The notes under the pieces were generated by a model, which saw only the letters and a program-made list of their open reading frames with translations, was not told the DNA's origin and did no database searches. Of a stretch of 64,000 nucleotides of DNA, positions 11,429-59,375 are shown piece by piece. The position numbers and the translations under genes are program-made. The DNA comes from Eledone cirrhosa (Eukaryota): positions 41,974,001 through 42,038,000 of the forward strand of contig OZ024748.1 in assembly GCA_964016885.1 (NCBI GenBank). The letters are read 5' to 3'. Every line of letters begins with the position of its first letter. Position 1 is the first letter of the stretch.

Positions 11429-12334
11429 CCTTCTTCTTCACCCACTTATTTCTGGGAGGGTTGTGGGGGCAGAGTCCTCAAACACTCCCTCTAGTGGGTC
11501 CTGTCAGAAGCAACCATCTCCAACTGATCTGGCTGGATCTCCAAGTGAGACAAGCCAAGCTCATGGATGTTATCCAACCATCCTGTCGGTTGGTTTTATC
11601 TGTAAAATCTGTCCAGTGATTCTTTCCTGAGACATTCTAACCACATGTCCGTAGTATCAGAGCTGTGATCTCTCAATTCAGTGATTCTTTCCTGAGACAT
11701 TCTAACCACATGCCCATAGTATCAGAGCTGTGATCTCTCAATTCAGAGATTCTTTCCTGAGACATTCTAACCACATGCCCATAGTATCAGAGCTGTGATC
11801 TCTCAATTCAGAGATTCGTTCCTGAGACATTCTAACCACATGTCGATAGTATCAGAGCTGTGATCTCTCAATTCAGTGATTCTTTCCTGAGACATTCTAA
11901 CCACATGTCCATAGTATCAGAGCTGTGATCTCTCAATTCAGAGATTCGTTCCTGAGACATTCTAACCACATGTCGATAGTATCAGAGCTGTGATCTCTCA
12001 ATTCAGTGATTCTTTCCTGAGACATTCTAACCACATGTCCATAGTATCAGAGCTGTGATCTCTCAATTCAGTGATTCTTTCCTGAGACATTCTAACCACA
12101 TGTCCATAGTATCAGAGCTGCGATCTCTCAATTCAGAGATTCTTTCCTGAAACATTCTAACCACATATCGATAGTATCAGAGCTGTGATCTCTCAATTCA
12201 GTGATTCTTTCCTGAGACATTCTAACCACATATCGATAGTATCAGAGCTGTGATCTCTCAATTCAGAGAAGTAGCAGCTCTACTTGGAGTGAATCTCTGA
12301 TCTCCGAGCTATGCACTCTATTAAGTAACGATAC
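11429..12334 (-). mobile_element. Decayed 3' end of a different RTE family (Rex3/Expander-like) with an internal tandem amplification
   Basis: With the repeat collapsed, the minus strand reads VSLLNRVHSSEIRDSLQVELLLL*IERSQL*YYGHVVRMSQERITGQILQIKPT..GWLDNIHELGLSHLEIQPDQLEMVASDR. (GAA)n tail at ~11430. Confidence 0.8.
11616..12265. repeat. Minisatellite, 10 x 65 bp
   Basis: Unit GTGATTCTTTCCTGAGACATTCTAACCACATGTCCATAGTATCAGAGCTGTGATCTCTCAATTCA, period 65 (11616, 11681...). Confidence 0.95.
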
Positions 12335-12560
12335 TACAAATAGCCTTCGGAGGAACCTACTTTAATAATTTACCTGGCCATTAAACTGCCACTTACAATG
12401 AAGGAACCTCTACATGGTAAGTTGATATGCTAGAAATAACTGCTAAATCATATCTGATCATCTTAAAAACAAATAAAATATGTTTTTCATACATGGAAAT
12501 AATGATTTTCTTTTTAAAAACAAGTGAAAAAGTGTGAAATGTGAAGCAAAGATTACTTAC

Positions 12561-12647
12561 ATTCCTAACTTTTCAAATGTAGCAGCATTTGGTTTGCGTA
12601 GATTGTTGACAAAAAACTCAAGTTTGAACGATGATGGATTTGTGGCT
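12561..12647 (-). CDS. VIRMA: Virilizer/VIRMA coding exon 3
   Basis: ttttcag|A GCC ACA AAT...GGA AT|gtaagt; 87 nt, phase 2 to phase 2; (G)ATNPSSFKLEFFVNNLRKPNAATFEKLG matches the VIR_N domain. Confidence 0.93.
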
Positions 12648-12869: not shown

Positions 12870-12921
<52 letters not shown>

Positions 12922-13502: not shown

Positions 13503-13607
13503 GAGCAAGACAAGGTCAGCCGACCAGACACTGCTCACAACAGGACAACCCGTCTAACCCATGCTAGCGTAGAAGAATGGACGTAAAATGGTGATGATGA
13601 TGATGAT
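13503..13607 (+). mobile_element. RTE 3'-tail fragment
   Basis: Matches 3234-3347 (GGTCAGCCGACCAGACACTG...CATGCTAGCG...(GAT)n). Confidence 0.85.
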
Positions 13608-13612
13608 ATATA

Positions 13613-14470
13613 ATCATCATCACTGTTTTACGGCTATTTCTCCATGCTACCATGGGTTAGACGGGTTGTCTTGTTGTGAGAAATTCCAGGTCAGGTGACC
13701 ATGTCTTGCTCGTACAGAACTGATTTTGGCTTGGTTTCTACAGCTGGATGCCCTTCCTAACACCAACCACATTTAGTGTGGACTGGGTGCTTTTTGGCGT
13801 GACATCCACACAACCACTTTACAGTGTGGACTGGGTGCTTTTTGGCGTGACATCCACACAACCACTTTACAGTGTGGACTGGGTGCTTTTTGGCGTGGCA
13901 CCCACACAACCACATTTAGTGTGGAATGGGTGCTTTTTGGCGTGACATCCACACAACCACTTTACAGTTTGGACTGGGTGCTTTTTGGCGTGACACCCAC
14001 ACAACCACTTTACAGTGTGGACTGGGTGCTTTTTGGCGTGGCACCCACACAACCATATTTAGTGTGGAATGGGTGCTTTTTGGCGTGACACCCACACAAC
14101 CACTTTACAGTGTGGACTGGGTGCTTTTTGGCGTGGCACCCACACAACCACATTTAGTGTGGACTGGGTGCTTTTTGGCGTGACATCCACACAACCACTT
14201 TACAGTTTGGACTGGGTGCTTTTTGGCGTGGCACCCACACAACCACATTTAGTGTGACACCCACACAACCACATTTAGTGTGGACTGGGTGCTTTTAGGC
14301 GTGACACCCACACAACCACATTTAGTGTGGACTGGGTGCTTTTTGGTGTGACACCCACACAACCACATTTAGTGTGGACTGGGTGCTTTTTGGCGTGACA
14401 CCCACACAACCACTTTACAGTGTGGACCGGGTGCTTTTTGGCGTGACACCCACACAGCCACTTTAAAGTG
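13613..14470 (-). mobile_element. RTE 3'-UTR fragment whose internal 48-bp unit is amplified
   Basis: Reverse complement of the RTE 3' UTR from the (GAT)n tail through GGAAGGGCATCCAGCTGTAGAAA, continuing into tandem units. Confidence 0.85.
13765..14470. repeat. Minisatellite, ~15 x 47-48 bp
   Basis: Unit GTGGACTGGGTGCTTTTTGGCGTGACACCCACACAACCACTTTACAGT. Confidence 0.92.
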
Positions 14471-18432: not shown

Positions 18433-18472
18433 AAAGAGATTACAGAAATTAAGGAAATATTTTGAAACCTAC

Positions 18473-18585
18473 CCAAGACGATTACCTCCGGGGACTTCAG
18501 CTTGTACTTTGGTACCAAGTGGAACAACATGGACTTCATGAAGAATTGCTGGACGAGGAAACTTCACAAGATCGAGATTTAGTTC
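18473..18585 (-). CDS. VIRMA: Virilizer/VIRMA coding exon 2
   Basis: ttaactctgttatttcag|GAA CTA AAT...CTT GG|gtaggt; 113 nt, phase 0 to phase 2; ELNLDLVKFPRPAILHEVHVVPLGTKVQAEVPGGNRLG. Confidence 0.93.
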
Positions 18586-18617
18586 CTGAAATAACAGAGT
18601 TAACGGAATCAATGTTG

Positions 18618-18812
18618 TTATTATTATTATTATTATTATTATTTCCATTATTATTTTTATTGCACATCATTACTGCTTTACCTTGGGTATGTGCAGTGTA
18701 GTTTTTGCTGATGTTGTTTCTATTGTATTGATAGTACTTTTCGTAATATGTGTGCAGTGCCTAGTAGTGCTATCTTTTGTATACTGTATATATTGGTCTG
18801 TGTGTTTAGTAC
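18618..18812 (-). mobile_element. 3' end of an R4/Dong-like RLE LINE ending in (TAA)n
   Basis: Minus strand encodes NIYSIQKIALLGTAHILRKVLSIQ*, homologous to the end of the 61167-61375 fragment; short UTR, then (TAA)n. Confidence 0.8.
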
Positions 18813-18814
18813 TA

Positions 18815-19012
18815 AAGGTGGTGGATTGGCAGAATCGTTAGAGCGTCAGACACCATGCTTTGCAGCATAGAGTTATGGCCCTTTATGTTCTGAGTTCAAA
18901 TCCCGCCGATGTTAACTTTGCCTTTCATCCTTATGGGGGTCGATAAAATAAAGTACCAGTAATGCACTGGGGTAATTGCTGGCCTTGTGCCAAAAGTAGA
19001 AATAATTATTAT
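18815..19012 (+). mobile_element. tRNA-derived SINE
   Basis: GGTGGATTGGCAGAATCGTTAG (A-box), GAGTTCAAATCC (B-box), family body, (ATT)n-like end. Confidence 0.82.
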
Positions 19013-19030: not shown

Positions 19031-22000
19031 GGTGTAACAACCAACACCCTAGCTACTCTGAAGTACAAGTGGTGTAACAACCAACACTCTAGCTACTCTG
19101 AAGTACAAGTGGTGTCACAACCAACATGCTAGCTACCCTGAAGTACAAGTGGTGTAACAACCAACATGCTAGCTACCCTGAAGTACAAGTGGTGTCACAA
19201 CCAACATGCTAGCTACCCTGAAGTACAAGTGGTGTCACAACCAACATACTAGCTACTCTGAAGTACAAGTGGTGTCACAACCAACACTCTAGCTACTCTG
19301 AAGTACAAGTGGTGTCACAACCAACATGCTAGCTACCCTGAAGTACAAGTGGTGTCACAACCAACATGCTAGCTACTCTGAAGTACAAATGGTGTAACAA
19401 CCAACATGCTAGCTACCCTGAAGTACAAGTGGTGTAACAACCAACATGCTAGCTACCCTGAAGTACAAATGGTGTCACAACCAGCATGCTAGCTACCCTG
19501 AAGTACAAGTGGTGTAACAACCAACATGCTAGCTACCCTGAAGTACAAGTGGTGTAACAACCAACATGCTAGCTACCCTGAAGTACAAATGGTGTAACAA
19601 CCAACATGCTAGCTACCCTGAAGTACAAATGGTGTAACAACCAACATGCTAGCTACTCTGAAGTACAAATGGTGTAACAACCAACATGCTAGCTACTCTG
19701 AAGTACAAGTGGTGTAACAACCAACATGCTAGCTACCCTGAAGTACAAATGGTGTAACAACCAACATGCTAGCTACTCTGAAGTACAAGTGGTGTCACAA
19801 CCAACATGCTAGCTACCCTGAAGTACAAGTGGTGTAACAACCAACATGCTAGCTACCCTGACGTACAAGTGGTGTCACAACCAACATGCTAGCTACCCTG
19901 AAGTACAAATGGTGCAACAACCAACATGCTAGCTATTCTGAAGTACAAATGGTGTAACAACCAACATGCTAGCTACCCTGAAGTACAAGTGGTGTAACAA
20001 CCAACATGCTAGCTACCCTGAAGTACAAGTGGTGTAACAACCAACATGCTAGCTACCCTGAAGTACAAGTGGTGTAACAACCAACATGCTAGCTACCCTG
20101 AAGTACAAGTGGTGTTACAACCAACACTCTAGCTACCCTGAAGTACAAGTGGTGTAACAACCAACATGCTAGCTACTCTGAAGTACAAGTGGTGTAACAA
20201 CCAACATGCTAGCTACCCTGAAGTACAAATGGTGTAACAACCAACACTCTAGCTACCCTGAAGTACAAATGGTGTAACAACCAACACCCTAGCTACTCTG
20301 AAGTACAAATGGTGTAACAACCAACATGCTAGCTACCCTGAAGTACAAATGGTGTAACAACCAACACTCTAGCTACTCTGAAGTACAAATGGTGTAACAA
20401 CCAACATGCTAGCTACCCTGAAGTACAAGTGGTGTAACAACCAACACTCTAGCTACTCTGAAGTACAAGTGGTGTAACAACCAACATGCTAGCTACTCTG
20501 AAGTACAAGTGGTGTAACAACCAACATGCTAGCTACCCTGAAGTACAAATGGTGTAACAACCAACACTCTAGCTACTCTGAAGTACAAATGGTGTAACAA
20601 CCAACATGCTAGCTACCCTGAAGTACAAATGGTGTAACAACCAACATGCTAGCTACCCTGAAGTACAAATGGTGTAACAACCAACATGCTAGCTACTCTG
20701 AAGTACAAGTGGTGTAACAACTAACATGCTAGCTACTCTGAAGTACAAATGGTGTAACAACCAACATGCTAGCTACCCTGAAGTACAAATGGTGTAACAA
20801 CCAACACTCTAGCTACTCTGAAGTACAAGTGGTGTAACAACCAACACTCTAGCTACCCTGAAGTACAAGTGGTGTAACAACCAACATGCTAGCTACTCTG
20901 AAGTACAAATGGTGTAACAACCAACATGCTAGCTACCCTGAAGTACAAATGGTGTAACAACCAACACTCTAGCTACTCTGAAGTACAAGTGGTGTAACAA
21001 CCAACACTCTAGCTACCCTGAAGTACAAGTGGTGTAACAACCAACACTCTAGCTACTCTGAAGTACAAGTGGTGTCACAACCAACATGCTAGCTACTCTG
21101 AAGTACAAATGGTGTAACAACCAACACTCTAGCTACTCTGAAGTACAAGTGGTGTAACAACCAACATGCTAGCTACCCTGAAGTACAAGTGGTGTAACAA
21201 CCAACATACTAGCTACCCTGAAGTACAAATGGTGTAACAACCAACATGCTAGCTACCCTGAAGTACAAGTGGTGTAACAACCAACATACTAGCTACCCTG
21301 AAGTACAAATGGTGTGACAACCAACACTCTAGCTACTCTGAAGTACAAGTGGTGTCACAACCAACATGCTAGCTACCCTGAAGTACAAGTGGTGTCACAA
21401 CCAACATGCTAGCTACTCTGAAGTACAAATGGTGTAACAACCAACATGCTAGCTACCCTGAAGTACAAGTGGTGTAACAACCAACATGCTAGCTACCCTG
21501 AAGTACAAATGGTGTCACAACCAGCATGCTAGCTACCCTGAAGTACAAGTGGTGTAACAACCAACATGCTAGCTACCCTGAAGTACAAGTGGTGTAACAA
21601 CCAACACTCTAGCTACCCTGAAGTACAAGTGGTGTAACAACCAACACTCTAGCTACTCTGAAGTACAAGTGGTGTCACAACCAACATGCTAGCTACTCTG
21701 AAGTACAAATGGTGTAACAACCAACACTCTAGCTACTCTGAAGTACAAGTGGTGTAACAACCAACATGCTAGCTACCCTGAAGTACAAGTGGTGTAACAA
21801 CCAACATACTAGCTACCCTGAAGTACAAATGGTGTAACAACCAACATGCTAGCTACCCTGAAGTACAAGTGGTGTAACAACCAACATGCTAGCTACTCTG
21901 AAGTACAAGTGGTGTCACAACCAACACTCTAGCTACTCTGAAGTACAAGTGGTGTCACAACCAACATGCTAGCTACCCTGAAGTACAAGTGGTGTCACAA

Positions 22001-25000
22001 CCAACATGCTAGCTACTCTGAAGTACAAATGGTGTAACAACCAACATGCTAGCTACCCTGAAGTACAAGTGGTGTAACAACCAACATGCTAGCTACCCTG
22101 AAGTACAAATGGTGTCACAACCAGCATGCTAGCTACCCTGAAGTACAAGTGGTGTAACAACCAACATGCTAGCTACCCTGAAGTACAAGTGGTGTAACAA
22201 CCAACATGCTAGCTACCCTGAAGTACAAATGGTGTAACAACCAACATGCTAGCTACCCTGAAGTACAAATGGTGTAACAACCAACATGCTAGCTACTCTG
22301 AAGTACAAATGGTGTAACAACCAACATGCTAGCTACTCTGAAGTACAAGTGGTGTAACAACCAACATGCTAGCTACCCTGAAGTACAAATGGTGTAACAA
22401 CCAACATGCTAGCTACTCTGAAGTACAAGTGGTGTCACAACCAACATGCTAGCTACCCTGAAGTACAAGTGGTGTAACAACCAACATGCTAGCTACCCTG
22501 ACGTACAAGTGGTGTCACAACCAACACCCTAGCTACTCTGAAGTACAAATGGTGTAACAACCAACATGCTAGCTACTCTGAAGTACAAGTGGTGTAACAA
22601 CCAACATGCTAGCTACCCTGAAGTACAAATGGTGCAACAACCAACATGCTAGCTATTCTGAAGTACAAATGGTGTAACAACCAACATGCTAGCTACCCTG
22701 AAGTACAAGTGGTGTAACAACCAACATGCTAGCTACCCTGAAGTACAAGTGGTGTAACAACCAACATGCTAGCTACCCTGAAGTACAAGTGGTGTAACAA
22801 CCAACATGCTAGCTACCCTGAAGTACAAGTGGTGTTACAACCAACACTCTAGCTACCCTGAAGTACAAGTGGTGTAACAACCAACATGCTAGCTACTCTG
22901 AAGTACAAGTGGTGTAACAACCAACATGCTAGCTACCCTGAAGTACAAATGGTGTAACAACCAACACTCTAGCTACCCTGAAGTACAAATGGTGTAACAA
23001 CCAACACCCTAGCTACTCTGAAGTACAAATGGTGTAACAACCAACATGCTAGCTACCCTGAAGTACAAATGGTGTAACAACCAACACTCTAGCTACTCTG
23101 AAGTACAAATGGTGTAACAACCAACATGCTAGCTACCCTGAAGTACAAGTGGTGTAACAACCAACACTCTAGCTACTCTGAAGTACAAGTGGTGTAACAA
23201 CCAACATGCTAGCTACTCTGAAGTACAAGTGGTGTAACAACCAACATGCTAGCTACCCTGAAGTACAAATGGTGTAACAACCAACACTCTAGCTACTCTG
23301 AAGTACAAATGGTGTAACAACCAACATGCTAGCTACCCTGAAGTACAAATGGTGTAACAACCAACATGCTAGCTACCCTGAAGTACAAATGGTGTAACAA
23401 CCAACATGCTAGCTACTCTGAAGTACAAGTGGTGTAACAACTAACATGCTAGCTACTCTGAAGTACAAATGGTGTAACAACCAACATGCTAGCTACCCTG
23501 AAGTACAAATGGTGTAACAACCAACACTCTAGCTACTCTGAAGTACAAGTGGTGTAACAACCAACACTCTAGCTACCCTGAAGTACAAGTGGTGTAACAA
23601 CCAACATGCTAGCTACTCTGAAGTACAAATGGTGTAACAACCAACATGCTAGCTACCCTGAAGTACAAATGGTGTAACAACCAACACTCTAGCTACTCTG
23701 AAGTACAAGTGGTGTAACAACCAACACTCTAGCTACCCTGAAGTACAAGTGGTGTAACAACCAACACTCTAGCTACTCTGAAGTACAAGTGGTGTCACAA
23801 CCAACATGCTAGCTACTCTGAAGTACAAATGGTGTAACAACCAACACTCTAGCTACTCTGAAGTACAAGTGGTGTAACAACCAACATGCTAGCTACCCTG
23901 AAGTACAAGTGGTGTAACAACCAACATACTAGCTACCCTGAAGTACAAATGGTGTAACAACCAACATGCTAGCTACCCTGAAGTACAAGTGGTGTAACAA
24001 CCAACATACTAGCTACCCTGAAGTACAAATGGTGTAACAACCAACACTCTAGCTACTCTGAAGTACAAGTGGTGTCACAACCAACATGCTAGCTACTCTG
24101 AAGTACAAATGGTGTAACAACCAACACTCTAGCTACTCTGAAGTACAAGTGGTGTGACAACCAACATACTAGCTACCCTGAAGTACAAATGGTGTAACAA
24201 CCAACATGATAGCTACCCTGAAGTACAAATGGTGTAACAACCAACATGCTAGCTACCCTGAAGTACAAATGGTGTCACAACCAACATACTAGCTACCCTG
24301 AAGTACAAATGGTGTCACAACCAACATGCTAGCTACCCTGAAGTACAAATGGTGTCACAACCAACATGCTAGCTACCCTGAAGTACAAGTGGTGTAACAA
24401 CCAACACTCTAGCTACTCTGAAGTACAAGTGGTGTCACAACCAACATACTAGCTACGCTGAAGTACAAATGGTGTCACAACCAACATGCTAGCTACCCTG
24501 AAGTACAAATGGTGTAACAACCAACATGCTAGCTACCCTGAAGTACAAATGGTGTCACAACCAACATGCTAGCTACTCTGAAGTACAAATGGTGTCACAA
24601 CCAACATGCTAGCTACCCTGAAGTACAAATGGTGTCACAACCAACATGCTAGCTACTCTGAAGTACAAATGGTGTAACAACCAACATGCTAGCTACTCTG
24701 AAGTACAAATGGTGTAACAACCAACACTCTAGCTACTCTGAAGTACAAATGGTGTAACAACCAACATGCTAGCTACTCTGAAGTATAAGTGGTGTCACAA
24801 CCAACATGCTAGCTACTCTGAAGTACAAGTGGTGTAACAACCAACATGCTAGCTACCCTGAAGTACAAGTGGTGTAACAACCAACATGCTAGCTACCCTG
24901 AAGTACAAATTGTGTCACAACCAACATGCTAGCTACCCTGAAGTACAAGTGGTGTAACAACCAACATGCTAGCTACTCTGAAGTACAAGTGGTGTAACAA

Positions 25001-34000: not shown

Positions 34001-35270
34001 CCAACACTCTAGCTACCCTGAAGTACAAATGGTGTAACAACCAACATGCTAGCTACCCTGAAGTACAAGTGGTGTAACAACCAACATGCTAGCTACCCTG
34101 AAGTACAAATGGTGTCACAACCAACATGCTAGCTACCCTGAAGTACAAATGGTGTCACAACCAACACCCTAGCTACTCTGAAGTACAAGTGGTGTAACCA
34201 CCAACACTCTAGCTACTCTGAAGTACAAGTGGTGTAACAACCAACATGCTAGCTACCCTGAAGTACAAATGGTGTAACAACCAACACTCTAGCTACCCTG
34301 AAGTACAAATGGTGTAACAACCAACATGCTAGCTACCCTGAAGTACAAATGGTGTAACAACCAACACTCTAGCTACCCTGAAGTACAAGTGGTGTAACAA
34401 CCAACATGCTAGCTACCCTGAAGTACAAATGGTGTAACAACCAACACTCTAGCTACCCTGAAGTACAAGTGGTGTAACAACCAACATGCTAGCTACCCTG
34501 AAGTACAAATGGTGTAACAACCAACACTCTAGCTACCCTGAAGTACAAATGGTGTAACAACCAACATGCTAGCTACCCTGAAGTACAAGTGGTGTAACAA
34601 CCAACATGCTAGCTACCCTGAAGTACAAATGGTGTCACAACCAACATGCTAGCTACCCTGAAGTACAAATGGTGTCACAACCAACACCCTAGCTACTCTG
34701 AAGTACAAGTGGTGTAACCACCAACACTCTAGCTACCCTGAAGTACAAGTGGTGTAACAACCAACATGCTAGCTACCCTGAAGTACAAATGGTGTCACAA
34801 CCAACATGCTAGCTACCCTGAAGTACAAATGGTGTCACAACCAACACCCTAGCTACTCTGAAGTACAAGTGGTGTAACAACCAACATGCTAGCTACCCTG
34901 AAGTACAAGTGGTGTAACAACCAACATGCTAGCTACCCTGAAGTACAAATGGTGTCACAACCAACATGCTAGCTACCCTGAAGTACAAATGGTATCACAA
35001 CCAACACCCTAGCTACTCTGAAGTACAAGTGGTGTAACAACCAACACTCTAGCTACTCTGAAGTACAAGTGGTGTCACAACCAACATGCTAGCTACCCTG
35101 AAGTACAAGTGGTGTAACAACTAACATGCTAGCTACTCTGAAGTACAAGTGGTGTAACAACCAACATGCTAGCTACCCTGAAGTACAAGTGGTGTAACAA
35201 CCAACACTCTAACTACTCTGAAGTAGAAGTGGTGTAACAACCAACACTCTAGCTACTCTGAAGTACAAGT
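19031..35270. repeat. Satellite, 406 x 40 bp, with no visible indel
   Basis: Consensus GGTGTAACAACCAACATGCTAGCTACCCTGAAGTACAAGT; 16240 bp = 406 x 40, phase kept throughout. Confidence 0.98.
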
Positions 35271-35286
35271 GCAAATTTAAATAGAG

Positions 35287-35872: not shown

Positions 35873-36091
35873 GGACAGTAAAAGACTAATTAAAAATAAT
35901 TATGTGGTGATTACGAGAGGATCTATTGGTGCAATAACTAATAAAGTTTTAATTATTTCAATAAATACAGGAGACAACTCCAAACATGTTTTAGCTTTAT
36001 TAAACCTCCTTAGTGAAGCATAGAAGTCATTATACTTGCCAGAGTAGAGAAGATAGAGTCAATAAGTAAATGTACAATAGTAATAGTATAA

Positions 36092-36250: not shown

Positions 36251-36491
36251 GGAAGGTGTAAGATAAATTAGCATACTTAAGAAATAAAGCACTAAGATTA
36301 ATTAATCAGATATGCCATTTGTATAAAAAAAAAAAACTCACAGGCATACAATAAGTCTTTCATCTCCGACATCATGGACAAGTAAGATAAATGGAGGAAT
36401 TTGACAAATATCACAGCAATGCCTTAGCCAAGAACTCAATCACTGGTTTGTGTGTAGAGAGGTGTAAATTACAGTTGTTAGGGTGGTAGAA

Positions 36492-45400: not shown

Positions 45401-48400
45401 TGATATATAGTCACATATTGTTGGTACTGGGATGGTGGGATATAGTCACATATTGGTACTGGGATGGTGGGATATAGTCACATATTGGTACTGGGATGGT
45501 GGGATATAGTCACATATTAGTACTGGGATGGTGGGATATAGTCACATATTAGTACTGGGATGGTGGGATATAGTCACATATTAGTACTGGGATGGTGGGA
45601 TATAGTCACATATTGGTACTGGGATGGTGGGATATAGTCACATGTTGGTACTGGGAGGGTGGGATATAGTCACATATTGTTTGTACTGGGATGGTGGGAT
45701 ATAGTCACATATTGTTGGTGGGATGGTGGGATATAGTCACATGTTGGTACTGGGATGGTGGGATATAGTCACATGTTGGTACTGGGATGGTGGGATATAG
45801 TCACATATTGGTACTGGGATGGTGGGATATAGTCACATATTGGTACTGGGATGGTGGGATATAGTCACATATTGTTGGTACTGGGATGGTGGGATATAGT
45901 CACATATTGGTACTGGGATGGTGGGATATAGTCACATATTGGTACTGGGAGGGTGGGATATAGTCACATATTAGTACTGGGATGGTGGGATATAGTCACA
46001 TATTGGTACTGGGAGGGTGGGATATAGTCACATATTGGAACTGGGATGGTGGGATATAGTCACATGTTGGTACTGGGATGGTGGGATATAGTCACATATT
46101 GTTGGTACTGGGATGGTGGGATATAGTCACATATTGGTACTGGGATGGTGGGATATAGTCACATATTGGTACTGGGATGGTGGGATATAGTCACATATTA
46201 GTACTGGGATGGTGGGATATAGTCACATATTAGTACTGGGATGGTGGGATATAGTCACATATTAGTACTGGGATGGTGGGATATAGTCACATATTGGTAC
46301 TGGGATGGTGGGATATAGTCACATATTAGTACTGGGATGGTGGGATATAGTCACATGTTGGTACTGGGAGGGTGGGATATAGTCACATATTGTTGGTACT
46401 GGGATGGTGGGATATAGTCACATATTGTTGGTGGGATGGTGGGATATAGTCACATATTGTTGGTGGGATGGTGGGATATAGTCACATATTAGTACTGGGA
46501 TGGTGGGATATAGTCACATATTGGTACTGGGATGGTGGGATATAGTCACATATTGGTACTGGGATGGTGGGATATAGTCACATATTGTTGGTGGGATGGT
46601 GGGATATAGTCACATATTGTTGGTGTGATGGTGGGATATAGTCACATATTAGTACTGGGATGGTGGGATATAGTCACATATTGGTACTGGGATGGTGGGA
46701 TATAGTCACATATTGTTGGTACTGTGATGGTGGGATATAGTCACATATTGGTACTGGGATGGTGGGATATATTCACATATTGGTACTGGGATGGTGGGAT
46801 ATAGTCACATATTAGTACTGGGATGGTGGGATATAGTCACATATTGGTACTGGGATGGTGGGATATAGTCACATATTAGTACTGGGATGGTGGGATATAG
46901 TCACATATTGTTGGTACTGGGATGGTGGGATATAGTCACATATTGGTACTGGGATGGTGGGATATAGTCACATATTAGTACTGGGATGGTGGGATATAGT
47001 CACATATTGTTGGTACTGGGATGGTGGGATATAGTCACATATTGGTACTGGGATGGTGGGATATAGTCACATATTGTTGGTGGGATGGTGGGATATAGTC
47101 ACATATTGGTACTGGGATGGTGGGATATAGTCACATATTGGTACTGGGATGGTGGGATATAGTCACATATTTGTACTGGGATGGTGGGATATAGTCACAT
47201 ATTGTTGGTGGGATGGTGGGATATAGTCACATATTGGTACTGGGATGGTGGGATATAGTCACATATTGGTACTGGGATGGTGGGATATAGTCACATATTG
47301 GTACTGGGATGGTGGGATATAGTCACATATTGTTGGTACTGGGATGGTGGGATATAGTCACATATTGTTGGTACTGGGATGGTGGGATATAGTCACATGT
47401 TGGTACTGGGATGGTGGGATATAGTCACATATTGTTGGTACTGGGATGGTGGGATATAGTCACATATTAATACTGGGATGGTGGGATATAGTCACATATT
47501 GGTACTGGGATGGTGGGATATAGTCACATATTGTTGGTACTGGGATGGTGGGATATAGTCACATATTGTTGGTACTGGGATGGTGGGATATAGTCACATA
47601 TTGGTACTGGGATGGTGGGATATAGTCACATATTAGTACTGGGATGGTGGGATATAGTCACATATTGGTACTGGGATGGTGGGATATAGTCACATATTGG
47701 TACTGGGATGGTGGGATATAGTCACATATTGTTGGTGGGATGGTGGGATATAGTCACATATTAGTACTGGGATGGTGGGATATAGTCACATATTGGTACT
47801 GGGATGGTCGGATATAGTCACATATTGGTACTGGGATGGTGGGATATAGTCACATATTGGTACTGGGATGGTGGGATATAGTCACATATTGTTGGTACTG
47901 GGATGGTAGGATATAGTCACATATTGTTGGTACTGGGATGGTGGGATATAGTCACATATTGGTACTGGGATGGTGGGATATAGTCACATATTAGTACTGG
48001 GATGGTGGGATATAGTCACATATTGGTACTGGGATGGTGGGATATAGTCACATATTGGTACTGGGATGGTGGGATATAGTCACATATTGTTGGTGGGATG
48101 GTGGGATATAGTCACATATTGTTGGTACTGGGATGGTGGGATATAGTCACATATTGGTACTGGGATGGTGGGATATAGTCACATATTAGTACTGGGATGG
48201 TGGGATATAGTCACATATTGGTACTGGGATGGTGGGATATAGTCACATATTGGTACTGGGATGGTGGGATATAGTCACATATTGGTACTGGGATGGTGGG
48301 ATATAGTCACATATTGTTGGTACTGGGATGGTGGGATATAGTCACATATTGGTACTGGGATGGTGGGATATAGTCACATATTAGTACTGGGATGGTGGGA

Positions 48401-51400
48401 TATAGTCACACATTGTTGGTACTGGGATGGTGGGATATAGTCACATATTAGTACTGGGATGGTGGGATATAGTCACATATTAGTACTGGGATGGTGGGAT
48501 ATAGTCACACATTGTTGGTACTGGGATGGTGGGATATAGTCACATATTGGTACTGGGATGGTGGGATATAGTCACATATTGTTGGTACTGGGATGGTGGG
48601 ATATAGTCACATATTAGTACTGGGATGGTGGGATATAGTCACATATTAGTACTGGGATGGTGGGATATAGTCACACATTGTTGGTACTGGGATGGTGGGA
48701 TATAGTCACATATTGGTACTGGGATGGTGGGATATAGTCACATGTTGTTGGTACTGGGATGGTGCGATATAGTCACATATTGGTACTGCGATGGTGGGAT
48801 ATAGTCACATATTGGTACTGGGATGGTGGGATATAGTCACATATTAGTTCTGGGATGGTGGGATATAGTCACATATAGGTACTGGGATGGTGGGATATAG
48901 TCACATGTTGTTACTGGGATGGTGGGATATAGTCACATATTAGTACTGGGATGGTGGGATATAGTCACATATTGGTACTGGGATGGTGGGATATAGTCAC
49001 ATATTGGTACTGGGATGGTGGGATATAGTCACATGTTGGTACTGGGATGGTGGGATATAGTCACATATTAGTACTGGGATGGTGGGATATAGTCACATAT
49101 TGTTGGTGGGATGGTGGGATATAGTCACATATTGTTGGTGGGATATAGTCACATATTGTTGGTACTGGGATGGTGGGATATAGTCATATGTTGGTACTGG
49201 GATGGTGGGATATAGTCACATATTGGTACTGGGATGGTGGGATATAGTCACATATTGTTGGTACTGGGATGGTGGGATATAGTCACATATTAGTACTGGG
49301 ATGGTGGGATATAGTCACATATTAGTACTGGGATGGTGGGATATAGTCACACATTGTTGGTACTGGGATGGTGGGATATAGTCACATATTGGTACTGGGA
49401 TGGTGGGATATAGTCACATGTTGTTGGTACTGGGATGGTGCGATATAGTCACATATTGGTACTGCGATGGTGGGATATAGTCACATATTGGTACTGGGAT
49501 GGTGGGATATAGTCACATATTAGTTCTGGGATGGTGGGATATAGTCACATATAGGTACTGGGATGGTGGGATATAGTCACATGTTGTTACTGGGATGGTG
49601 GGATATAGTCACATATTAGTACTGGGATGGTGGGATATAGTCACATATTGGTACTGGGATGGTGGGATATAGTCACATATTGGTACTGGGATGGTGGGAT
49701 ATAGTCACATATTGTTGGTGGGATGGTGGGATATAGTCACATATTAGTACTGGGATGGTGGGATATAGTCACATATTGGTACTGGGATGGTGGGATATAG
49801 TCACATATTGGTACTGGGATGGTGGGATATAGTCACATATTGGTACTGGGATGGTGGGATATAGTCACATATTGTTGGTACTGGGATGGTGGGATATAGT
49901 CACATATTGTTGGTACTGGGATGGTGGGATATAGTCACATATTGGTACTGGGATGGTGGGATATAGTCACATATTAGTACTGGGATGGTGGGATATAGTC
50001 ACATATTGGTACTGGGATGGTGGGATATAGTCACATATTGGTACTGGGATGGTGGGATATAGTCACATATTGGTACTGGGATGGTGGGATATAGTCACAT
50101 ATTGTTGGTACTGGGATGGTGGGATATAGTCACATATTGTTGGTACTGGGATGGTGGGATATAGTCACATATTGGTACTGGGATGGTGGGATATAGTCAC
50201 ATATTAGTACTGGGATGGTGGGATATAGTCACATATTGGTACTGGGATGGTGGGATATAGTCACATATTGGTACTGGGATGGTGGGATATAGTCACATAT
50301 TGTTGGTACTGGGATGGTGGGATATAGTCACATATTGGTACTGGGATGGTGGGATATAGTCACATATTAGTACTGGGATGGTGGGATATAGTCACACATT
50401 GTTGGTACTGGGATGGTGGGATATAGTCACATATTAGTACTGGGATGGTGGGATATAGTCACATATTAGTACTGGGATGGTGGGATATAGTCACACATTG
50501 TTACTGGGATGGTGGGATATAGTCACATATTAGTACTGGGATGGTGGGATATAGTCACATATTGGTACTGGGATGGTGGGATATAGTCACATATTGGTAC
50601 TGGGATGGTGGGATATAGTCACATGTTGGTACTGGGATGGTGGGATATAGTCACATATTAGTACTGGGATGGTGGGATATAGTCACATATTGTTGGTGGG
50701 ATGGTGGGATATAGTCACATATTGTTGGTGGGATATAGTCACATATTGTTGGTACTGGGATGGTGGGATATAGTCATATGTTGGTACTGGGATGGTGGGA
50801 TATAGTCACATATTGGTACTGGGATGGTGGGATATAGTCACATATTGTTGGTACTGGGATGGTGGGATATAGTCACATGTTGGTACTGGGATGGTGGGAT
50901 ATAGTCACATGTTGGTACTGGGATGGTGGGATATAGTCACATGTTGGTACTGGGATGGTGGGATATAGTCACATGTTGGTACTGGGATGGTGGGATATAG
51001 TCACATATTGGTACTGGGATGGTGGGATATAGTCACATATTGGTACTGGGATGGTGGGATATAGTCACATATTGGTACTGGGATGGTGGGATATAGTCAC
51101 ATATTGTTGGTGGGATGGTGGGATATAGTCACATATTGGTACTGGGATGGTGGGATATAGTCACATGTTGGTACTGGGATGGTGGGATATAGTCACATAT
51201 TTGTACTGGGATGGTGGGATATAGTCACATATTGTTGGTGGGATGGTGGGATATAGTCACATATTAGTACTGGGATGGTGGGATATAGTCACATATTGGT
51301 ACTGGGATGGTGGGATATAGTCACATATTGGTACTGGGATGGTGGGATATAGTCACATATTGGTACTGGGATGGTGGGATATAGTCACATATTGGTACTG

Positions 51401-54400
51401 GGATGTTGGGATATAGTCACATGTTGTTGGTACTGGGATGGTGGGATATAGTCACATATTGGTACTGCGATGGTGGGATATAGTCACATATTGGTACTGG
51501 GATGGTGGGATATAGTCACATATTAGTTCTGGGATGGTGGGATATAGTCACATATTGGTACTGGGATGGTGGGATATAGTCACATGTTGTTACTGGGATG
51601 GTGGGATATAGTCACATATTAGTACTGGGATGGTGGGATATAGTCACATATTGGTACTGGGATGGTGGGATATAGTCACATATTGGTACTGGGATGGTGG
51701 GATATAGTCACATATTGGTACTGGGATGGTGGGATATAGTCACATATTAGTACTGGGATGGTGGGATATAGTCACATATTGTTGGTGGGATGGTGGGATA
51801 TAGTCACATATTGTTGGTACTGGGATGGTGGGATATAGTCACATGTTGGTACTGGGATGGTGGGATATAGTCACATGTTGGTACTGGGATGGTGGGATAT
51901 AGTCACATGTTGGTACTGGGATGGTGGGATATAGTCACATGTTGGTACTGGGATGGTGGGATATAGTCACATATAGTTGGTACTGGGATGGTGGGATATA
52001 GTCACATATTGGTACTGGGATGGTGGGATATAGTCACATATTGTTGGTACTGGGATGGTGGGATATAGTCACATGTTGGTACTGGGATGGTGGGATATAG
52101 TCACATATTGGTACTGGGAGGGTGGGATATAGTCACATATTGGTACTGGGATGGTGGGATATAGTCACATATTGTTGGTGGGATATAGTCTCATATTGGT
52201 ACTGGGATGGTGGGATATAGTCACATATTGGTACTGGGATGGTGATATATAGTCACATATTGTTGGTACTGGGATGGTGGGATATAGTCACATATTGGTA
52301 CTGGGATGGTGGGATATAGTCACATATTGGTACTGGGATGGTGGGATATAGTCACATATTAGTACTGGGATGGTGGGATATAGTCACATATTAGTACTGG
52401 GATGGTGGGATATAGTCACATATTAGTACTGGGATGGTGGGATATAGTCACATATTGGTACTGGGATGGTGGGATATAGTCACATGTTGGTACTGGGAGG
52501 GTGGGATATAGTCACATATTGTTTGTACTGGGATGGTGGGATATAGTCACATATTAGTACTGGGATGGTGGGATATAGTCACATATTAGTACTGGGATGG
52601 TGGGATATAGTCACATATTAGTACTGGGATGGTGGGATATAGTCACATATTGGTACTGGGATGGTGGGATATAGTCACATGTTGGTACTGGGAGGGTGGG
52701 ATATAGTCACATATTGTTTGTACTGGGATGGTGGGATATAGTCACATATTGTTGGTGGGATGGTGGGATATAGTCACATGTTGGTACTGGGATGGTGGGA
52801 TATAGTCACATATTGTTGGTACTGGGATGGTGGGATATAGTCACATATTGGTACTGGGATGGTGGGATATAGTCACATATTGGTACTGGGAGGGTGGGAT
52901 ATAGTCACATATTAGTACTGGGATGGTGGGATATAGTCACATATTGGTACTGGGAGGGTGGGATATAGTCACATATTGGAACTGGGATGGTGGGATATAG
53001 TCACATGTTGGTACTGGGATGGTGGGATATAGTCACATATTGTTGGTACTGGGATGGTGGGATATAGTCACATATTGGTACTGGGATGGTGGGATATAGT
53101 CACATATTAGTACTGGGATGGTGGGATATAGTCACATATTAGTACTGGGATGGTGGGATATAGTCACATATTAGTACTGGGATGGTGGGATATAGTCACA
53201 TATTGGTACTGGGATGGTGGGATATAGTCACATATTAGTACTGGGATGGTGGGATATAGTCACATGTTGGTACTGGGAGGGTGGGATATAGTCACATATT
53301 GTTGGTACTGGGATGGTGGGATATAGTCACATATTGTTGGTGGGATGGTGGGATATAGTCACATATTGTTGGTGGGATGGTGGGATATAGTCACATATTA
53401 GTACTGGGATGGTGGGATATAGTCACATATTGTTGGTGGGATGGTGGGATATAGTCACATATTGTTGGTGGGATGGTGGGATATAGTCACATATTGTTGG
53501 TGGGATGGTGGGATATAGTCACATATTGGTACTGGGATGGTGGGATATAGTCACATATTGGTACTGGGATGGTGGGATATAGTCACATATTGTTGGTGGG
53601 ATGGTGGGATATAGTCACATATTGTTGGTGTGATGGTGGGATATAGTCACATATTAGTACTGGGATGGTGGGATATAGTCACATATTGGTACTGGGATGG
53701 TGGGATATAGTCACATATTGTTGGTACTGTGATGGTGGGATATAGTCACATATTGGTACTGGGATGGTGGGATATATTCACATATTGGTACTGGGATGGT
53801 GGGATATAGTCACATATTAGTACTGGGATGGTGGGATATAGTCACATATTGGTACTGGGATGGTGGGATATAGTCACATATTAGTACTGGGATGGTGGGA
53901 TATAGTCACATATTGTTGGTACTGGGATGGTGGGATATAGTCACATATTGGTACTGGGATGGTGGGATATAGTCACATATTAGTACTGGGATGGTGGGAT
54001 ATAGTCACATATTGTTGGTACTGGGATGGTGGGATATAGTCACATATTGGTACTGGGATGGTGGGATATAGTCACATATTGTTGGTGGGATGGTGGGATA
54101 TAGTCACATATTGGTACTGGGATGGTGGGATATAGTCACATATTGGTACTGGGATGGTGGGATATAGTCACATATTTGTACTGGGATGGTGGGATATAGT
54201 CACATATTGTTGGTGGGATGGTGGGATATAGTCACATATTGGTACTGGGATGGTGGGATATAGTCACATATTGGTACTGGGATGGTGGGATATAGTCACA
54301 TATTGGTACTGGGATGGTGGGATATAGTCACATATTGTTGGTACTGGGATGGTGGGATATAGTCACATATTGTTGGTACTGGGATGGTGGGATATAGTCA

Positions 54401-57400
54401 CATGTTGGTACTGGGATGGTGGGATATAGTCACATATTGTTGGTACTGGGATGGTGGGATATAGTCACATATTAATACTGGGATGGTGGGATATAGTCAC
54501 ATATTGGTACTGGGATGGTGGGATATAGTCACATATTGTTGGTACTGGGATGGTGGGATATAGTCACATATTGTTGGTACTGGGATGGTGGGATATAGTC
54601 ACATATTGGTACTGGGATGGTGGGATATAGTCACATATTAGTACTGGGATGGTGGGATATAGTCACATATTGGTACTGGGATGGTGGGATATAGTCACAT
54701 ATTGGTACTGGGATGGTGGGATATAGTCACATATTGTTGGTGGGATGGTGGGATATAGTCACATATTAGTACTGGGATGGTGGGATATAGTCACATATTG
54801 GTACTGGGATGGTGGGATATAGTCACATATTGGTACTGGGATGGTGGGATATAGTCACATATTGGTACTGGGATGGTGGGATATAGTCACATATTGTTGG
54901 TACTGGGATGGTAGGATATAGTCACATATTGTTGGTACTGGGATGGTGGGATATAGTCACATATTGGTACTGGGATGGTGGGATATAGTCACATATTAGT
55001 ACTGGGATGGTGGGATATAGTCACATATTGGTACTGGGATGGTGGGATATAGTCACATATTGGTACTGGGATGGTGGGATATAGTCACATATTGTTGGTG
55101 GGATGGTGGGATATAGTCACATATTGTTGGTACTGGGATGGTGGGATATAGTCACATATTGGTACTGGGATGGTGGGATATAGTCACATATTAGTACTGG
55201 GATGGTGGGATATAGTCACATATTGGTACTGGGATGGTGGGATATAGTCACATATTGGTACTGGGATGGTGGGATATAGTCACATATTGGTACTGGGATG
55301 GTGGGATATAGTCACATATTGTTGGTACTGGGATGGTGGGATATAGTCACATATTGGTACTGGGATGGTGGGATATAGTCACATATTAGTACTGGGATGG
55401 TGGGATATAGTCACACATTGTTGGTACTGGGATGGTGGGATATAGTCACATATTAGTACTGGGATGGTGGGATATAGTCACATATTAGTACTGGGATGGT
55501 GGGATATAGTCACACATTGTTGGTACTGGGATGGTGGGATATAGTCACATATTGGTACTGGGATGGTGGGATATAGTCACATATTGTTGGTACTGGGATG
55601 GTGGGATATAGTCACATATTAGTACTGGGATGGTGGGATATAGTCACATATTAGTACTGGGATGGTGGGATATAGTCACACATTGTTGGTACTGGGATGG
55701 TGGGATATAGTCACATATTGGTACTGGGATGGTGGGATATAGTCACATGTTGTTGGTACTGGGATGGTGCGATATAGTCACATATTGGTACTGCGATGGT
55801 GGGATATAGTCACATATTGGTACTGGGATGGTGGGATATAGTCACATATTAGTTCTGGGATGGTGGGATATAGTCACATATAGGTACTGGGATGGTGGGA
55901 TATAGTCACATGTTGTTACTGGGATGGTGGGATATAGTCACATATTAGTACTGGGATGGTGGGATATAGTCACATATTGGTACTGGGATGGTGGGATATA
56001 GTCACATATTGGTACTGGGATGGTGGGATATAGTCACATGTTGGTACTGGGATGGTGGGATATAGTCACATATTAGTACTGGGATGGTGGGATATAGTCA
56101 CATATTGTTGGTGGGATGGTGGGATATAGTCACATATTGTTGGTGGGATATAGTCACATATTGTTGGTACTGGGATGGTGGGATATAGTCATATGTTGGT
56201 ACTGGGATGGTGGGATATAGTCACATATTGGTACTGGGATGGTGGGATATAGTCACATATTGTTGGTACTGGGATGGTGGGATATAGTCACATATTAGTA
56301 CTGGGATGGTGGGATATAGTCACATATTAGTACTGGGATGGTGGGATATAGTCACACATTGTTGGTACTGGGATGGTGGGATATAGTCACATATTGGTAC
56401 TGGGATGGTGGGATATAGTCACATGTTGTTGGTACTGGGATGGTGCGATATAGTCACATATTGGTACTGCGATGGTGGGATATAGTCACATATTGGTACT
56501 GGGATGGTGGGATATAGTCACATATTAGTTCTGGGATGGTGGGATATAGTCACATATAGGTACTGGGATGGTGGGATATAGTCACATGTTGTTACTGGGA
56601 TGGTGGGATATAGTCACATATTAGTACTGGGATGGTGGGATATAGTCACATATTGGTACTGGGATGGTGGGATATAGTCACATATTGGTACTGGGATGGT
56701 GGGATATAGTCACATGTTGGTACTGGGATGGTGGGATATAGTCACATATTGGTACTGGGAGGGTGGGATATAGTCACATATTGGTACTGGGATGGTGGGA
56801 TATAGTCACATATTGTTGGTGGGATATAGTCACATATTGTTGGTGGGATATAGTCTCATATTGGTACTGGGATGGTGGGATATAGTCACATATTGGTACT
56901 GGGATGGTGGGATATAGTCACATATTGTTGGTACTGGGATGGTGGGATATAGTCACATATTGGTACTGGGATGGTGGGATATAGTCACATATTGGTACTG
57001 GGATGGTGGGATATAGTCACATATTAGTACTGGGATGGTGGGATATAGTCACATATTAGTACTGGGATGGTGGGATATAGTCACATATTAGTACTGGGAT
57101 GGTGGGATATAGTCACATATTGGTACTGGGATGGTGGGATATAGTCACATATTAGTACTGGGATGGTGGGATATAGTCACATGTTGGTACTGGGAGGGTG
57201 GGATATAGTCACATATTGTTTGTACTGGGATGGTGGGATATAGTCACATATTGTTGGTGGGATGGTGGGATATAGTCACATGTTGGTACTGGGATGGTGG
57301 GATATAGTCACATATTGTTGGTACTGGGATGGTGGGATATAGTCACATATTGGTACTGGGATGGTGGGATATAGTCACATATTGGTACTGGGAGGGTGGG

Positions 57401-59187
57401 ATATAGTCACATATTAGTACTGGGATGGTGGGATATAGTCACATATTAGTACTGGGATGGTGGGATATAGTCACATATTAGTACTGGGAGGGTGGGATAT
57501 AGTCACATATTGGAACTGGGATGGTGGGATATAGTCACATGTTGGTACTGGGATGGTGGGATATAGTCACATATTGTTGGTACTGGGATGGTGGGATATA
57601 GTCACATATTGGTACTGGGATGGTGGGATATAGTCACATATTGGTACTGGGATGGTGGGATATAGTCACATATTAGTACTGGGATGGTGGGATATAGTCA
57701 CATATTAGTACTGGGATGGTGGGATATAGTCACATATTAGTACTGGGATGGTGGGATATAGTCACATATTGGTACTGGGATGGTGGGATATAGTCACATA
57801 TTAGTACTGGGATGGTGGGATATAGTCACATGTTGGTACTGGGAGGGTGGGATATAGTCACATATTGTTGGTACTGGGATGGTGGGATATAGTCACATAT
57901 TGTTGGTGGGATGGTGGGATATAGTCACATATTGTTGGTGGGATGGTGGGATATAGTCACATATTAGTACTGGGATGGTGGGATATAGTCACATATTGGT
58001 ACTGGGATGGTGGGATATAGTCACATATTGGTACTGGGATGGTGGGATATAGTCACATATTGTTGGTGGGATGGTGGGATATAGTCACATATTGTTGGTG
58101 TGATGGTGGGATATAGTCACATATTAGTACTGGGATGGTGGGATATAGTCACATATTGGTACTGGGATGGTGGGATATAGTCACATATTGTTGGTACTGT
58201 GATGGTGGGATATAGTCACATATTGGTACTGGGATGGTGGGATATATTCACATATTGGTACTGGGATGGTGGGATATAGTCACATATTAGTACTGGGATG
58301 GTGGGATATAGTCACATATTGGTACTGGGATGGTGGGATATAGTCACATATTGTTGGTACTGGGATGGTGGGATATAGTCACATATTGGTACTGGGATGG
58401 TGGGATATAGTCACATATTAGTACTGGGATGGTGGGATATAGTCACATATTGTTGGTACTGGGATGGTGGGATATAGTCACATATTGGTACTGGGATGGT
58501 GGGATATAGTCACATATTAGTACTGGGATGGTGGGATATAGTCACATATTGTTGGTACTGGGATGGTGGGATATAGTCACATATTGGTACTGGGATGGTG
58601 GGATATAGTCACATATTGTTGGTGGGATGGTGGGATATAGTCACATATTGGTACTGGGATGGTGGGATATAGTCGCATATTGGTACTGGGATGGTGGGAT
58701 ATAGTCACATATTTGTACTGGGATGGTGGGATATAGTCACATATTGTTGGTGGGATGGTGGGATATAGTCACATATTGGTACTGGGATGGTGGGATATAG
58801 TCACATATTCGTACTGGGATGGTGGGATATAGTCACATATTGGTACTGGGATGGTGGGATATAGTCACATATTGGTACTGGGATGGTGGGATATAGTCAC
58901 TTATTGGTACTGGGATGGTGGGATATAGTCATATATTGTTGGTGGGATGGTGGGATATAGTCACATATTGGTACTGGGATGGTGGGATATAGTCATATAT
59001 TGGTACTGGGATGGTGGGATATAGTCACTTATTGGTACTGGGATGGTGGGATATAGTCATATATTGTTGGTGGGATGGTGGGATATAGTCACATATTGGT
59101 ACTGGGATGGTGGGATATAGTCACATATTGGTACTGGGAAGGTGGGATATAGTCACATATTGTTGGTGGGATATAGTCACATATTGT
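36492..59187. repeat. G-rich satellite, ~700 x 32 bp (24/32/35-bp variants)
   Basis: Consensus GGTACTGGGATGGTGGGATATAGTCACATATT over 22.7 kb. Confidence 0.98.
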
Positions 59188-59375
59188 CATCACCGGACAT
59201 AATGTCTTATGATATTTGATCCGGCTCTTTACGTTGAATTCATGTCATGTCGAGGGTCAACTTTGATGTTTGTCTTTCTAAGGTCGATAAAATAAAGCCC
59301 CAGTCAAATACTGGCAGTATTAATATCATCAATAGATTACTTTCTGACCTTGTGTCTACGTTAGAAATTATTATT
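59188..59375 (+). mobile_element. Decayed SINE body continuing directly from the 32-bp satellite
   Basis: CTCTTTACGTTGAATTCA..GTCAACTTTG..GGTCGATAAAATAAAG.CCCAGTCAAATACTGG..CCTTGTGTC..TAGAAATTATTATT aligns with the SINE at 18815-19012. Confidence 0.72.

What the first reader, a model, noticed from the sequence alone, without database searches (positions are those of the whole stretch)
11429..59375. 'Satellite nursery': tandem arrays seeded by pieces of retroelements, at graded sizes
Seen: the 65-mer (x10) is a slice of an RTE coding region, and the 48-mer (x~15) is a unit of the RTE 3' UTR. The 28-31-mer (x~32) resembles a SINE A-box head, and the 32-mer (x~700) runs straight into a SINE body. 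The 40-mer (x406) has no source I could identify. Five unrelated monomers have amplified within the introns of one gene, three of them still joined to the parent element's own sequence. Inference: a locus-level or genome-wide process keeps amplifying 30-65-bp segments in place, and TE-to-satellite birth is visible here at several stages.
Basis: partly seen in the sequence, partly recalled or inferred. Interest (0 to 1): 0.7.

Follow-up and report, generated by a model that had tools for sequence, protein, structure and literature searches.

The report
Repeat arrays colonise dead transposon copies
The five repeat blocks in this animal gene's introns are real, four are local members of repeat families scattered across the genome, and for one family the repeats were likely copied from one dead jumping-gene copy into many others instead of being born afresh at each site.

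Summary
All five arrays exist, in introns of virilizer/VIRMA. The locus is no special nursery: array number is ordinary for this genome's small chromosomes.
65-mer: a LINE coding slice with both parent flanks, duplicated in the same register at 77 places.
48-mer: the native repeat of an RTE tail.
31-mer: a SINE head without its body.
32-mer: not from the SINE beside it but from a TTAA-flanked MITE on its left; ten other arrays share it.
40-mer: unique to the locus, weakly like the 48-mer.
New result: in 32 other 65-mer arrays the majority unit differs from the family at 8 of 1,312 sites, their LINE flanks at 413 of 5,066, and the flanks form no clade. One variant fills all 21 listed arrays on C25. 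Units therefore likely moved between old LINE copies, then expanded locally. The window's own 65-mer alone is not decisive (p 0.14).
Transposon-derived satellites are known, and this scan noted similar arrays elsewhere in this genome. The flank-controlled evidence for transfer is the addition.

The parts
59988..60050 (-). virilizer/VIRMA first coding exon (inferred from frame, ATG and donor site)
   Evidence: no Pfam hit on its own
18473..18585 (-). virilizer exon 2
   Evidence: Pfam PF15912 positions 18-55, E 1.9e-10; splice sites
12561..12647 (-). virilizer exon 3
   Evidence: Pfam PF15912 positions 54-84, E 4.1e-10
11430..12358 (-). 5'-truncated LINE copy (RTE-like C-terminal coding region and 3' end) that holds the 65-mer array
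   Evidence: collapsed locus aligns to 29 of 29 fetched family copies; family is related to the RT-LINE protein P0001, best E 3e-5
11614..12266 (-). 65-mer x10; same register as 76 other places in the genome
13606..13763 (-). RTE 3' tail joined to the 48-mer array
   Evidence: 84% over 155 bases to the tail at 3182-3335
13764..14465 (-). 47/48-mer array, about 15 units; native repeat of the RTE 3' UTR
   Evidence: same family arrayed in L035, L036, L193, L218
17484..18437 (+). 27-31-mer array, 33 pieces; SINE 5' head without body; ends about 35 bases from the exon 2 donor site
18808..19011 (+). full-length SINE, left neighbour of the 40-mer array
   Evidence: profile hit E 1e-69
19031..35271 (+). 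40-mer x406, 53 distinct units, found only here; weak likeness to the 48-mer family
   Evidence: 351 of 351 and 164 of 164 genome hits lie in the window
35285..35873 (+). 5'-truncated RTE fragment, right neighbour of the 40-mer array
36380..36540 (+). remnant of a ~320-bp TTAA-flanked MITE, parent of the 32/35/43-mer; continuous with the first unit
   Evidence: profile positions 147-346 of 391, E 4e-21
36492..59187 (+). 32/35-mer array, about 700 units; deletion forms of a 43-mer from the MITE's subterminal direct repeats
59194..59376 (+). headless, decayed SINE abutting the array; neighbour, not parent
   Evidence: profile hit starts at model position 46, E 7e-16; unit-versus-head test negative

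Best explanation
The arrays are local examples of a genome-wide process, commonest on small chromosomes, in which short slices of transposons form tandem repeats that likely spread to other copies of the same transposon by recombination-based copying and then likely grow in place by unequal exchange. Shown: parentage of four monomers; recurrence of the 65-mer in one register at 77 places; units nearly identical between loci whose LINE flanks are old and form no clade; long identical blocks inside the two big arrays. Inferred: (1) a first duplication between short direct repeats of the parent (5 of 6 matching bases for the 65-mer, subterminal repeats 43 bp apart for the MITE, a native repeat for the 48-mer); (2) transfer of units into homologous dead copies during break repair or by re-integration of DNA circles, mostly within one chromosome; (3) local expansion; (4) a link to higher recombination per base on small chromosomes and chromosome ends. 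No function is indicated; the arrays most likely behave as selfish, near-neutral DNA.
For: 77 array 5' edges against 1,616 single-type sites. Only 3 of 77 lie on C1-C4, which hold 54% of the genome, all within 15 Mb of an end; the first 308 Mb of C1 hold 100 single sites and no array. A two-base unit variant (CAGA) is in 43 of 77 first units by my count (C25 21 of 21, C27 13 of 18) but in 49 single-type sites genome-wide, none on C25 or C27. At sites not fixed by the search pattern, majority units of 32 such arrays differ from the family at 8 of 1,312 sites (63 expected at the single-copy rate), flanks at 413 of 5,066; all units 2.5%. No flank column is fixed in these arrays and rare in singles; AU test rejects a flank clade, p 0.024; outer flanks share only repeats. 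The 32/35/43-mer core is identical at 11 loci on 8 chromosomes while MITE flanks are 78-84% alike, and 7 of 10 other arrays lack a clear MITE 5' part. Identical blocks of 35 and 75 units recur inside the 40-mer and 32-mer arrays.
Against: The window's own 65-mer lacks the variant and is not decisive: 0 of 41 differences, 2 expected, p 0.14. A one-crossover insertion predicts one resident-type edge unit per array; seen in 3 of 25 first and 2 of 22 last units, so later overwriting of edges must be assumed (10 or so last units do carry the array-junction base). Per-unit divergence (2.5%) is only about half the single-copy value (4.8%). The flank tree is star-like with no supported branch, and two flank columns in an indel-rich stretch lean towards these arrays (19 of 21 against 9 of 22). 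The 40-mer is unique to the locus, so it shows no spread. The 20 extra loci were chosen from C25/C27. No orthologous locus, recombination map or second haplotype was available; the number of single copies on C25/C27 is unknown.
Confidence: 0.62

Rival explanations
1. Independent birth in place: each transposon copy duplicated its own slice at a favoured microhomology and expanded alone.
For: Parent sequence is continuous on both sides of the 65-mer. Several arrays keep private changes in all units (L081, L132, L133). Two- and three-unit loci are no closer to the family than single copies (11 of 328, 16 expected, p 0.14). Other periods (108, 123) arise from the same LINE stretch. The 40-mer is unique to this locus. 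It may well be true for the window's own 65-mer and 40-mer.
Against: It cannot give 8 of 1,312 private differences where about 63 are expected, nor one rare variant in 21 of 21 listed arrays on C25. MITE-derived arrays occur without MITE flanks.
Confidence: 0.14
2. Arrays ride on transposing elements: a master LINE fragment or MITE already held the array and was copied with it.
For: The 48-mer is native to the RTE tail, 0-2 units in most sampled tails. Four of 30 MITE copies hold short internal arrays, three with the 3' end in place. Published for Xmix/Xstir (PMC6004289, passages).
Against: Variant 65-mer arrays have flanks as divergent from each other (0.215) as single copies (0.167), no fixed shared flank change, and a rejected clade. 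Retrotransposition gives no reason for clustering on C25 and C27. Explains seeds for the 48-mer and MITE, not the spread of uniform units.
Confidence: 0.12
3. Transfer goes through RNA: array transcripts are reverse-transcribed by LINE enzymes and the cDNA converts homologous genomic copies.
For: An RT-LINE frame open for at least 1,012 codons lies at 1-3036; arrays sit in transcribed introns. Same sequence signature as DNA-level transfer.
Against: Does not predict within-chromosome clustering; no poly-A or target duplications were looked for at array edges; the MITE-derived family has no LINE tail.
Confidence: 0.09
4. Assembly artefact: repeat reads from different loci were merged, making units look shared or arrays too long.
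For: Not tested with long reads; copy numbers rest on one assembly.
Against: Each locus has its own mix of recurring unit variants; 53 distinct 40-mers, 44 recurring; a contig of run X17 matches 18400-18606 exactly and runs on into the 31-mer array (may be the assembly's own sample).
Confidence: 0.03

Closest known systems
SINE-derived satellites (sSat) of squamates, Vassetzky et al. 2023, PMC10702118 (abstract, background, passages and Discussion read; supplements not seen)
   Same: Tandem slices of a retroposon still joined to parent sequence at many loci; few to hundreds of units; long loci homogeneous within and between loci; subtelomeric preference.
   Different: Units there are 70-290 nt and SINE-only. 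Here 28-65 nt, from a LINE coding region, a LINE tail, a SINE head and a MITE. In the parts I read, homogeneity is ascribed to concerted evolution with no unit-versus-flank test.
Spread of Rsp-like into 1.688 clusters on the Drosophila X, Sproul et al., 10.1101/846238 (passages read)
   Same: Near-identical repeats appear at new loci where homologous sequence already lay; interlocus conversion or circle re-integration proposed; spread within one chromosome.
   Different: Landing pads there are an older satellite; here they are dead, single-copy LINE fragments, and the array replaces its own parent slice in register.
Xmix/Xstir (TTAA-flanked T2-MITE) and miDNA4 of Xenopus (passages of PMC6004289 and PMC9659126; original papers not read)
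   Same: A satellite unit amplified from the inside of a TTAA-flanked MITE, as for the 32/35/43-mer.
   Different: T2-MITEs end in AGGRR (Kolobok); this MITE begins with CCC, which I recall as piggyBac-like. Most long arrays here have lost the MITE ends.
Alu-, B1- and MaLR-derived minisatellites of human and mouse (listed in review PMC9659126, passages)
   Same: Minisatellites of similar unit length born from retroposon slices, recurrently.
   Different: Arrays here reach 16-60 kb and cover about 15% of sampled bases.

Membership tests
TE-derived tandem repeat | Monomer homologous to a dispersed transposon | tested here: met
   65-mer, 48-mer, 31-mer, 32-mer; 40-mer inconclusive
TE-derived tandem repeat | Array continuous with parent sequence in register | tested here: met
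   65-mer both sides, 48-mer 3' side, 32-mer 5' side; not met for 31-mer and 40-mer
SINE-derived satellite (sSat-like), 32-mer | Unit derived from the adjoining SINE | tested here: not met
   189 of 400 shuffles score as high against 74 SINE heads; none of 9 other 3' flanks seen is that SINE body, by inspection
SINE-derived satellite (sSat-like), 31-mer | Unit is part of a dispersed SINE | tested here: met
   30 of 30 fetched loci continue into a shared ~200-bp element or a piece of it; tRNA origin not shown, Rfam found no tRNA at the heads
MITE (parent of 32-mer) | Short, non-coding, terminal inverted repeats, target duplication | tested here: met
   Both TTAA-flanked inverted ends in 9 of 30 loci at up to 3 mismatches, length 299-396
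piggyBac superfamily (parent of 32-mer) | Autonomous partner with piggyBac transposase and the same ends | not tested
   Label rests on TTAA plus CCC start, recalled
RTE clade (parent of 65-mer) | RT phylogeny places it in the RTE clade | tested here: inconclusive
   Only the C-terminal region is held; 22-35% identity to P0001, best E 3e-5; clade name recalled
Interlocus spread of satellites (Rsp-like model) | Units more alike between loci than their flanks | tested here: met
   8 of 1,312 against 413 of 5,066; p-distance 0.030 against 0.215
Interlocus spread of satellites (Rsp-like model) | Edge units keep the resident sequence | tested here: inconclusive
   3 of 25 first and 2 of 22 last units; edges appear overwritten
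Interlocus spread of satellites (Rsp-like model) | Empty (single-unit) orthologous sites in sister species; repeats on DNA circles | not testable with these tools
   No relatives held; runs X1 and X2 do not cover exon 2
Locus-specific nursery | Array density above comparable regions and monomers private to the locus | tested here: not met
   5 arrays in 64 kb against 26 in 190 kb of small chromosomes; four of five monomers arrayed elsewhere

The most novel reading that the evidence does not exclude
Minisatellite arrays act as homing-like parasites of dead transposons: one array haplotype, born once in a dead LINE copy, has converted dozens of homologous copies along single small chromosomes, with no enzyme of its own. 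Dispersed transposon families would then be maps of landing pads, and thousands of such arrays would record where and how far ectopic recombination reaches in a cephalopod germ line.
Probability: 0.4. Interest if true: 0.68.

Novelty: new variant of a known kind. Interest (0 to 1): 0.46.

Why it matters
How a satellite gets from one locus to many is a standing question, usually argued from arrays without dated surroundings. Here each array sits in a transposon copy whose flanks give its age and ancestry, and 1,616 unarrayed sites are the control. That separates birth in place, riding on a transposon and transfer by recombination, and it points to transfer for one family. It also warns that an array joined to parent sequence need not have been born there. 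The 'nursery' as first described is a known phenomenon and is not special to this gene; no effect on virilizer was shown.

Tried and rejected
SINE origin of the 32-mer: rejected. Segmental duplication as cause of the C25/C27 cluster: outer flanks of 25 (5') and 24 (3') loci share only repeats. Subtelomeric position of the window: no, 42 Mb into a 60.6-Mb chromosome. Source of the 40-mer: no blast hit across the collapsed unit in 1.5 Mb of loci, best profile hit E 0.42; the 48-mer likeness was picked after that search, so its 9 of 400 is not a clean test; one search failed and was redone. Size as stage of birth: no ordering. Orthologue test: runs X1 and X2 gave no cover of exon 2, which proves nothing; the second read-laying run was not used. 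ARAGORN found no tRNA; Rfam on three SINE loci gave only simple-repeat matches and one weak tRNA hit away from the heads. One search had wrong offsets and is superseded. Dropped rows: L092 (truncated single) and L130 (the window itself) from unit counts; loci with under 40 flank sites (1 of 33, 4 of 11, 1 of 9); 47 of 78 loci had enough flank for the tree; the C16 sample did not exist. Literature: searches listed no paper on cephalopod TE-derived minisatellites or on a unit-versus-flank test in LINE copies; most were seen as listings only, and subscription journals are missing. PMC13282606 (part 1 of 3 read) treats TEs there, not such arrays.

Full report
Setting. The window is G000:C8:41,974,001-42,038,000 in a 3.0-Gb animal genome. 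C8 is 60.6 Mb; C1-C4 are 379-443 Mb. No call names the organism; 'octopod' is my inference from recalled repeat types and agrees with unchecked earlier notes. Three minus-strand exons with GT-AG junctions read in one frame, and two hit Pfam VIR_N: the gene is virilizer/VIRMA. The 40-mer and 32-mer lie in intron 1, the 48-mer and 31-mer in intron 2, the 65-mer beyond exon 3.

Observation. TRF finds all five arrays at the stated sizes, plus a 3-kb CAC/CAA array. They cover 64% of the window.

65-mer. Collapsed in a script, the locus aligns at 79-88% to all 29 family copies fetched, and the family encodes the C-terminal part of an RT-LINE protein. Three of those 29 copies hold the same array in the same register. 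A pattern for parent edge plus array junction found 77 places (lower bound, the three are not among them); the matching single-unit pattern found 1,616. Only 3 of 77 are on C1-C4 (54% of the genome), all near ends; C25 has 21 and C27 has 18.

Are the 77 separate births? I examined 53 loci with two or more units and 25 single copies. A two-base variant is in 43 of 77 first units (my count) but only 49 single-type sites, none on C25 or C27. At 41 sites not fixed by the pattern, the majority units of 32 variant arrays differ from the family at 8 of 1,312 sites, single copies at 49 of 1,025, and the arrays' LINE flanks at 413 of 5,066. Seven other arrays of four or more units give 5 of 287 (p 0.007 at the single-copy rate); two- and three-unit loci 11 of 328 (p 0.14). 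Flanks of variant arrays are as far apart (0.215) as those of singles (0.167), carry no fixed shared change and are rejected as a clade (AU p 0.024, 15 of 47 rows), though the tree has no supported branch. Outer flanks share only repeats. So units are younger than their host copies and shared among them: I infer transfer of units. Against this: resident-type edge units are rare (3 of 25, 2 of 22), all units together diverge 2.5%, half the single-copy value, and the window's own array (0 of 41, p 0.14) cannot be assigned.

48-mer. It runs directly into an RTE tail; the RTE at the window's start has two units at that place. In the 59 systematic samples 37 of 38 tails had 0-2 units and one had five or more; family arrays of 12-35 units occur in L035, L036, L193 and L218. 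It is a native repeat that often expands.

31-mer. It matches the first ~27 nt of a dispersed SINE; the body is absent here. Related head arrays lie at four places on C15 by hit spacing (not fetched).

32-mer. A 25-base core has 1,224 exact hits, 400 in the window. Ten other arrays on C2, C3, C4, C9, C17, C21 and C22 have periods 43, 35 and some 32. The SINE on the right lacks its first ~30 nt and is unrelated to the unit. The left flank, 36380-36540, matches a ~320-bp element with TTAA-flanked inverted ends; two direct repeats 43 bp apart near its 3' end give the 43-mer, and the 35- and 32-mers are deletion forms (inferred). Three of the ten other arrays keep a clear MITE 5' part; seven do not. 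Units are near-identical between loci while MITE flanks are 78-84% alike; these loci were found by the shared core, so that contrast is partly selected.

40-mer. All 351 exact-pattern hits and all 164 two-mismatch hits are in the window. It resembles the 48-mer family weakly (9 of 400 shuffles). It is the best case for birth in place, of uncertain source.

Is the locus special? In 10-kb samples at round coordinates, complex arrays (unit 20-200, three or more copies) numbered 6 in 20 giant-chromosome interiors, 26 in 19 small-chromosome samples (p 0.001), 9 in 12 giant ends and 4 in 8 medium chromosomes; mean cover was about 16% in both interior and small sets. The 80 kb left of the window hold 28 arrays, the 40 kb right hold 1. 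The window is ordinary in number, high in cover, at the edge of a dense patch. Only 13 of 45 sampled arrays matched dispersed sequence in 0.64 Mb, so retroelements are one source among others. Within-array divergence is 4.2% (65), 6.5% (48), 3.4% (31), 4.7% (40) and 2.3% (32): size does not mark age. Identical blocks of 35 and 75 units at lags of 68 and 211 show local block duplication.

Mechanism. Most likely: a slice duplicates between short direct repeats; the array then serves as template when a homologous copy elsewhere is repaired, or circles from it re-integrate; each array grows by unequal exchange. Steps of transfer and growth are inferred, as is the tie to recombination rate (0.62). 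Rivals: birth in place (0.14), riding on transposing elements (0.12), RNA-templated conversion (0.09), assembly artefact (0.03).

Known work. Squamate sSats (PMC10702118) show the same anatomy and end preference. Rsp-like spread in Drosophila (10.1101/846238) is the closest mechanism. Xmix/Xstir is the model for the MITE case. My searches listed no unit-versus-flank test in LINE copies and nothing on such arrays in cephalopods; supplements were not seen. Earlier scan notes report TE-derived arrays elsewhere in this genome and none near or like these stretches.

Verdict. Observation partly confirmed, interpretation partly supported. A new variant of a known kind; interest 0.46, carried by the evidence that arrays colonise dead transposon copies.

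Noticed in passing
window 1-3330 +: RT-LINE frame open for at least 1,012 codons, with endonuclease, RT and an inserted PHD finger; runs off the window's left end; looks young.
   Followed up: partly
window 8236-11299: 3-kb CAC/CAA compound microsatellite with extreme strand skew, in the same gene; not in the finding.
   Followed up: no
window 13503-13711: Two opposed RTE tails form a 210-base inverted repeat (81%) inside intron 2; a likely double-stranded RNA and editing substrate.
   Followed up: no
window 3775-5166 -: PIF1-like helicase fragment (E 2.5e-53), probably a Helitron piece.
   Followed up: no
window 61501-63900 +: Second RT-LINE of another kind, broken by stops, with a C-terminal zinc knuckle; R4/Dong-like by recall.
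   Followed up: no
window 6798-6924 and 7864-7989: 128-base inverted pair (79%) about 1 kb apart, enclosing a decayed 48-mer run at 7047-7241; possible DNA transposon ends.
   Followed up: no
G000 C18:30.99 Mb, C19:15.02 Mb, C21:5.80 and 17.30 Mb: The same LINE stretch is also repeated with periods 108 and 123; L148 and L149 alternate 65- and 58-base units.
   Followed up: no
L117/L115 (C4:93.95 Mb): A 35-mer array of over 40 kb starts with inverted units joined to an RTE fragment, a fold-back junction typical of template switching.
   Followed up: no
L027-L029 (C3:58.02-58.08 Mb): A 39-mer array in one MITE copy lies 1.1 kb before a 57-kb 35-mer array of the same family.
   Followed up: partly
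L186-L244: Nine of 59 systematic 10-kb samples lie wholly inside one array, each with a different unit (27-84 bases); the genome seems to hold very many large private satellites.
   Followed up: partly
L034-L045 (80 kb left of the window): 28 arrays, 52% cover, including SINE-tail 50-mers (over 200 units) and several 48-mers; the 40 kb right of the window has one.
   Followed up: partly
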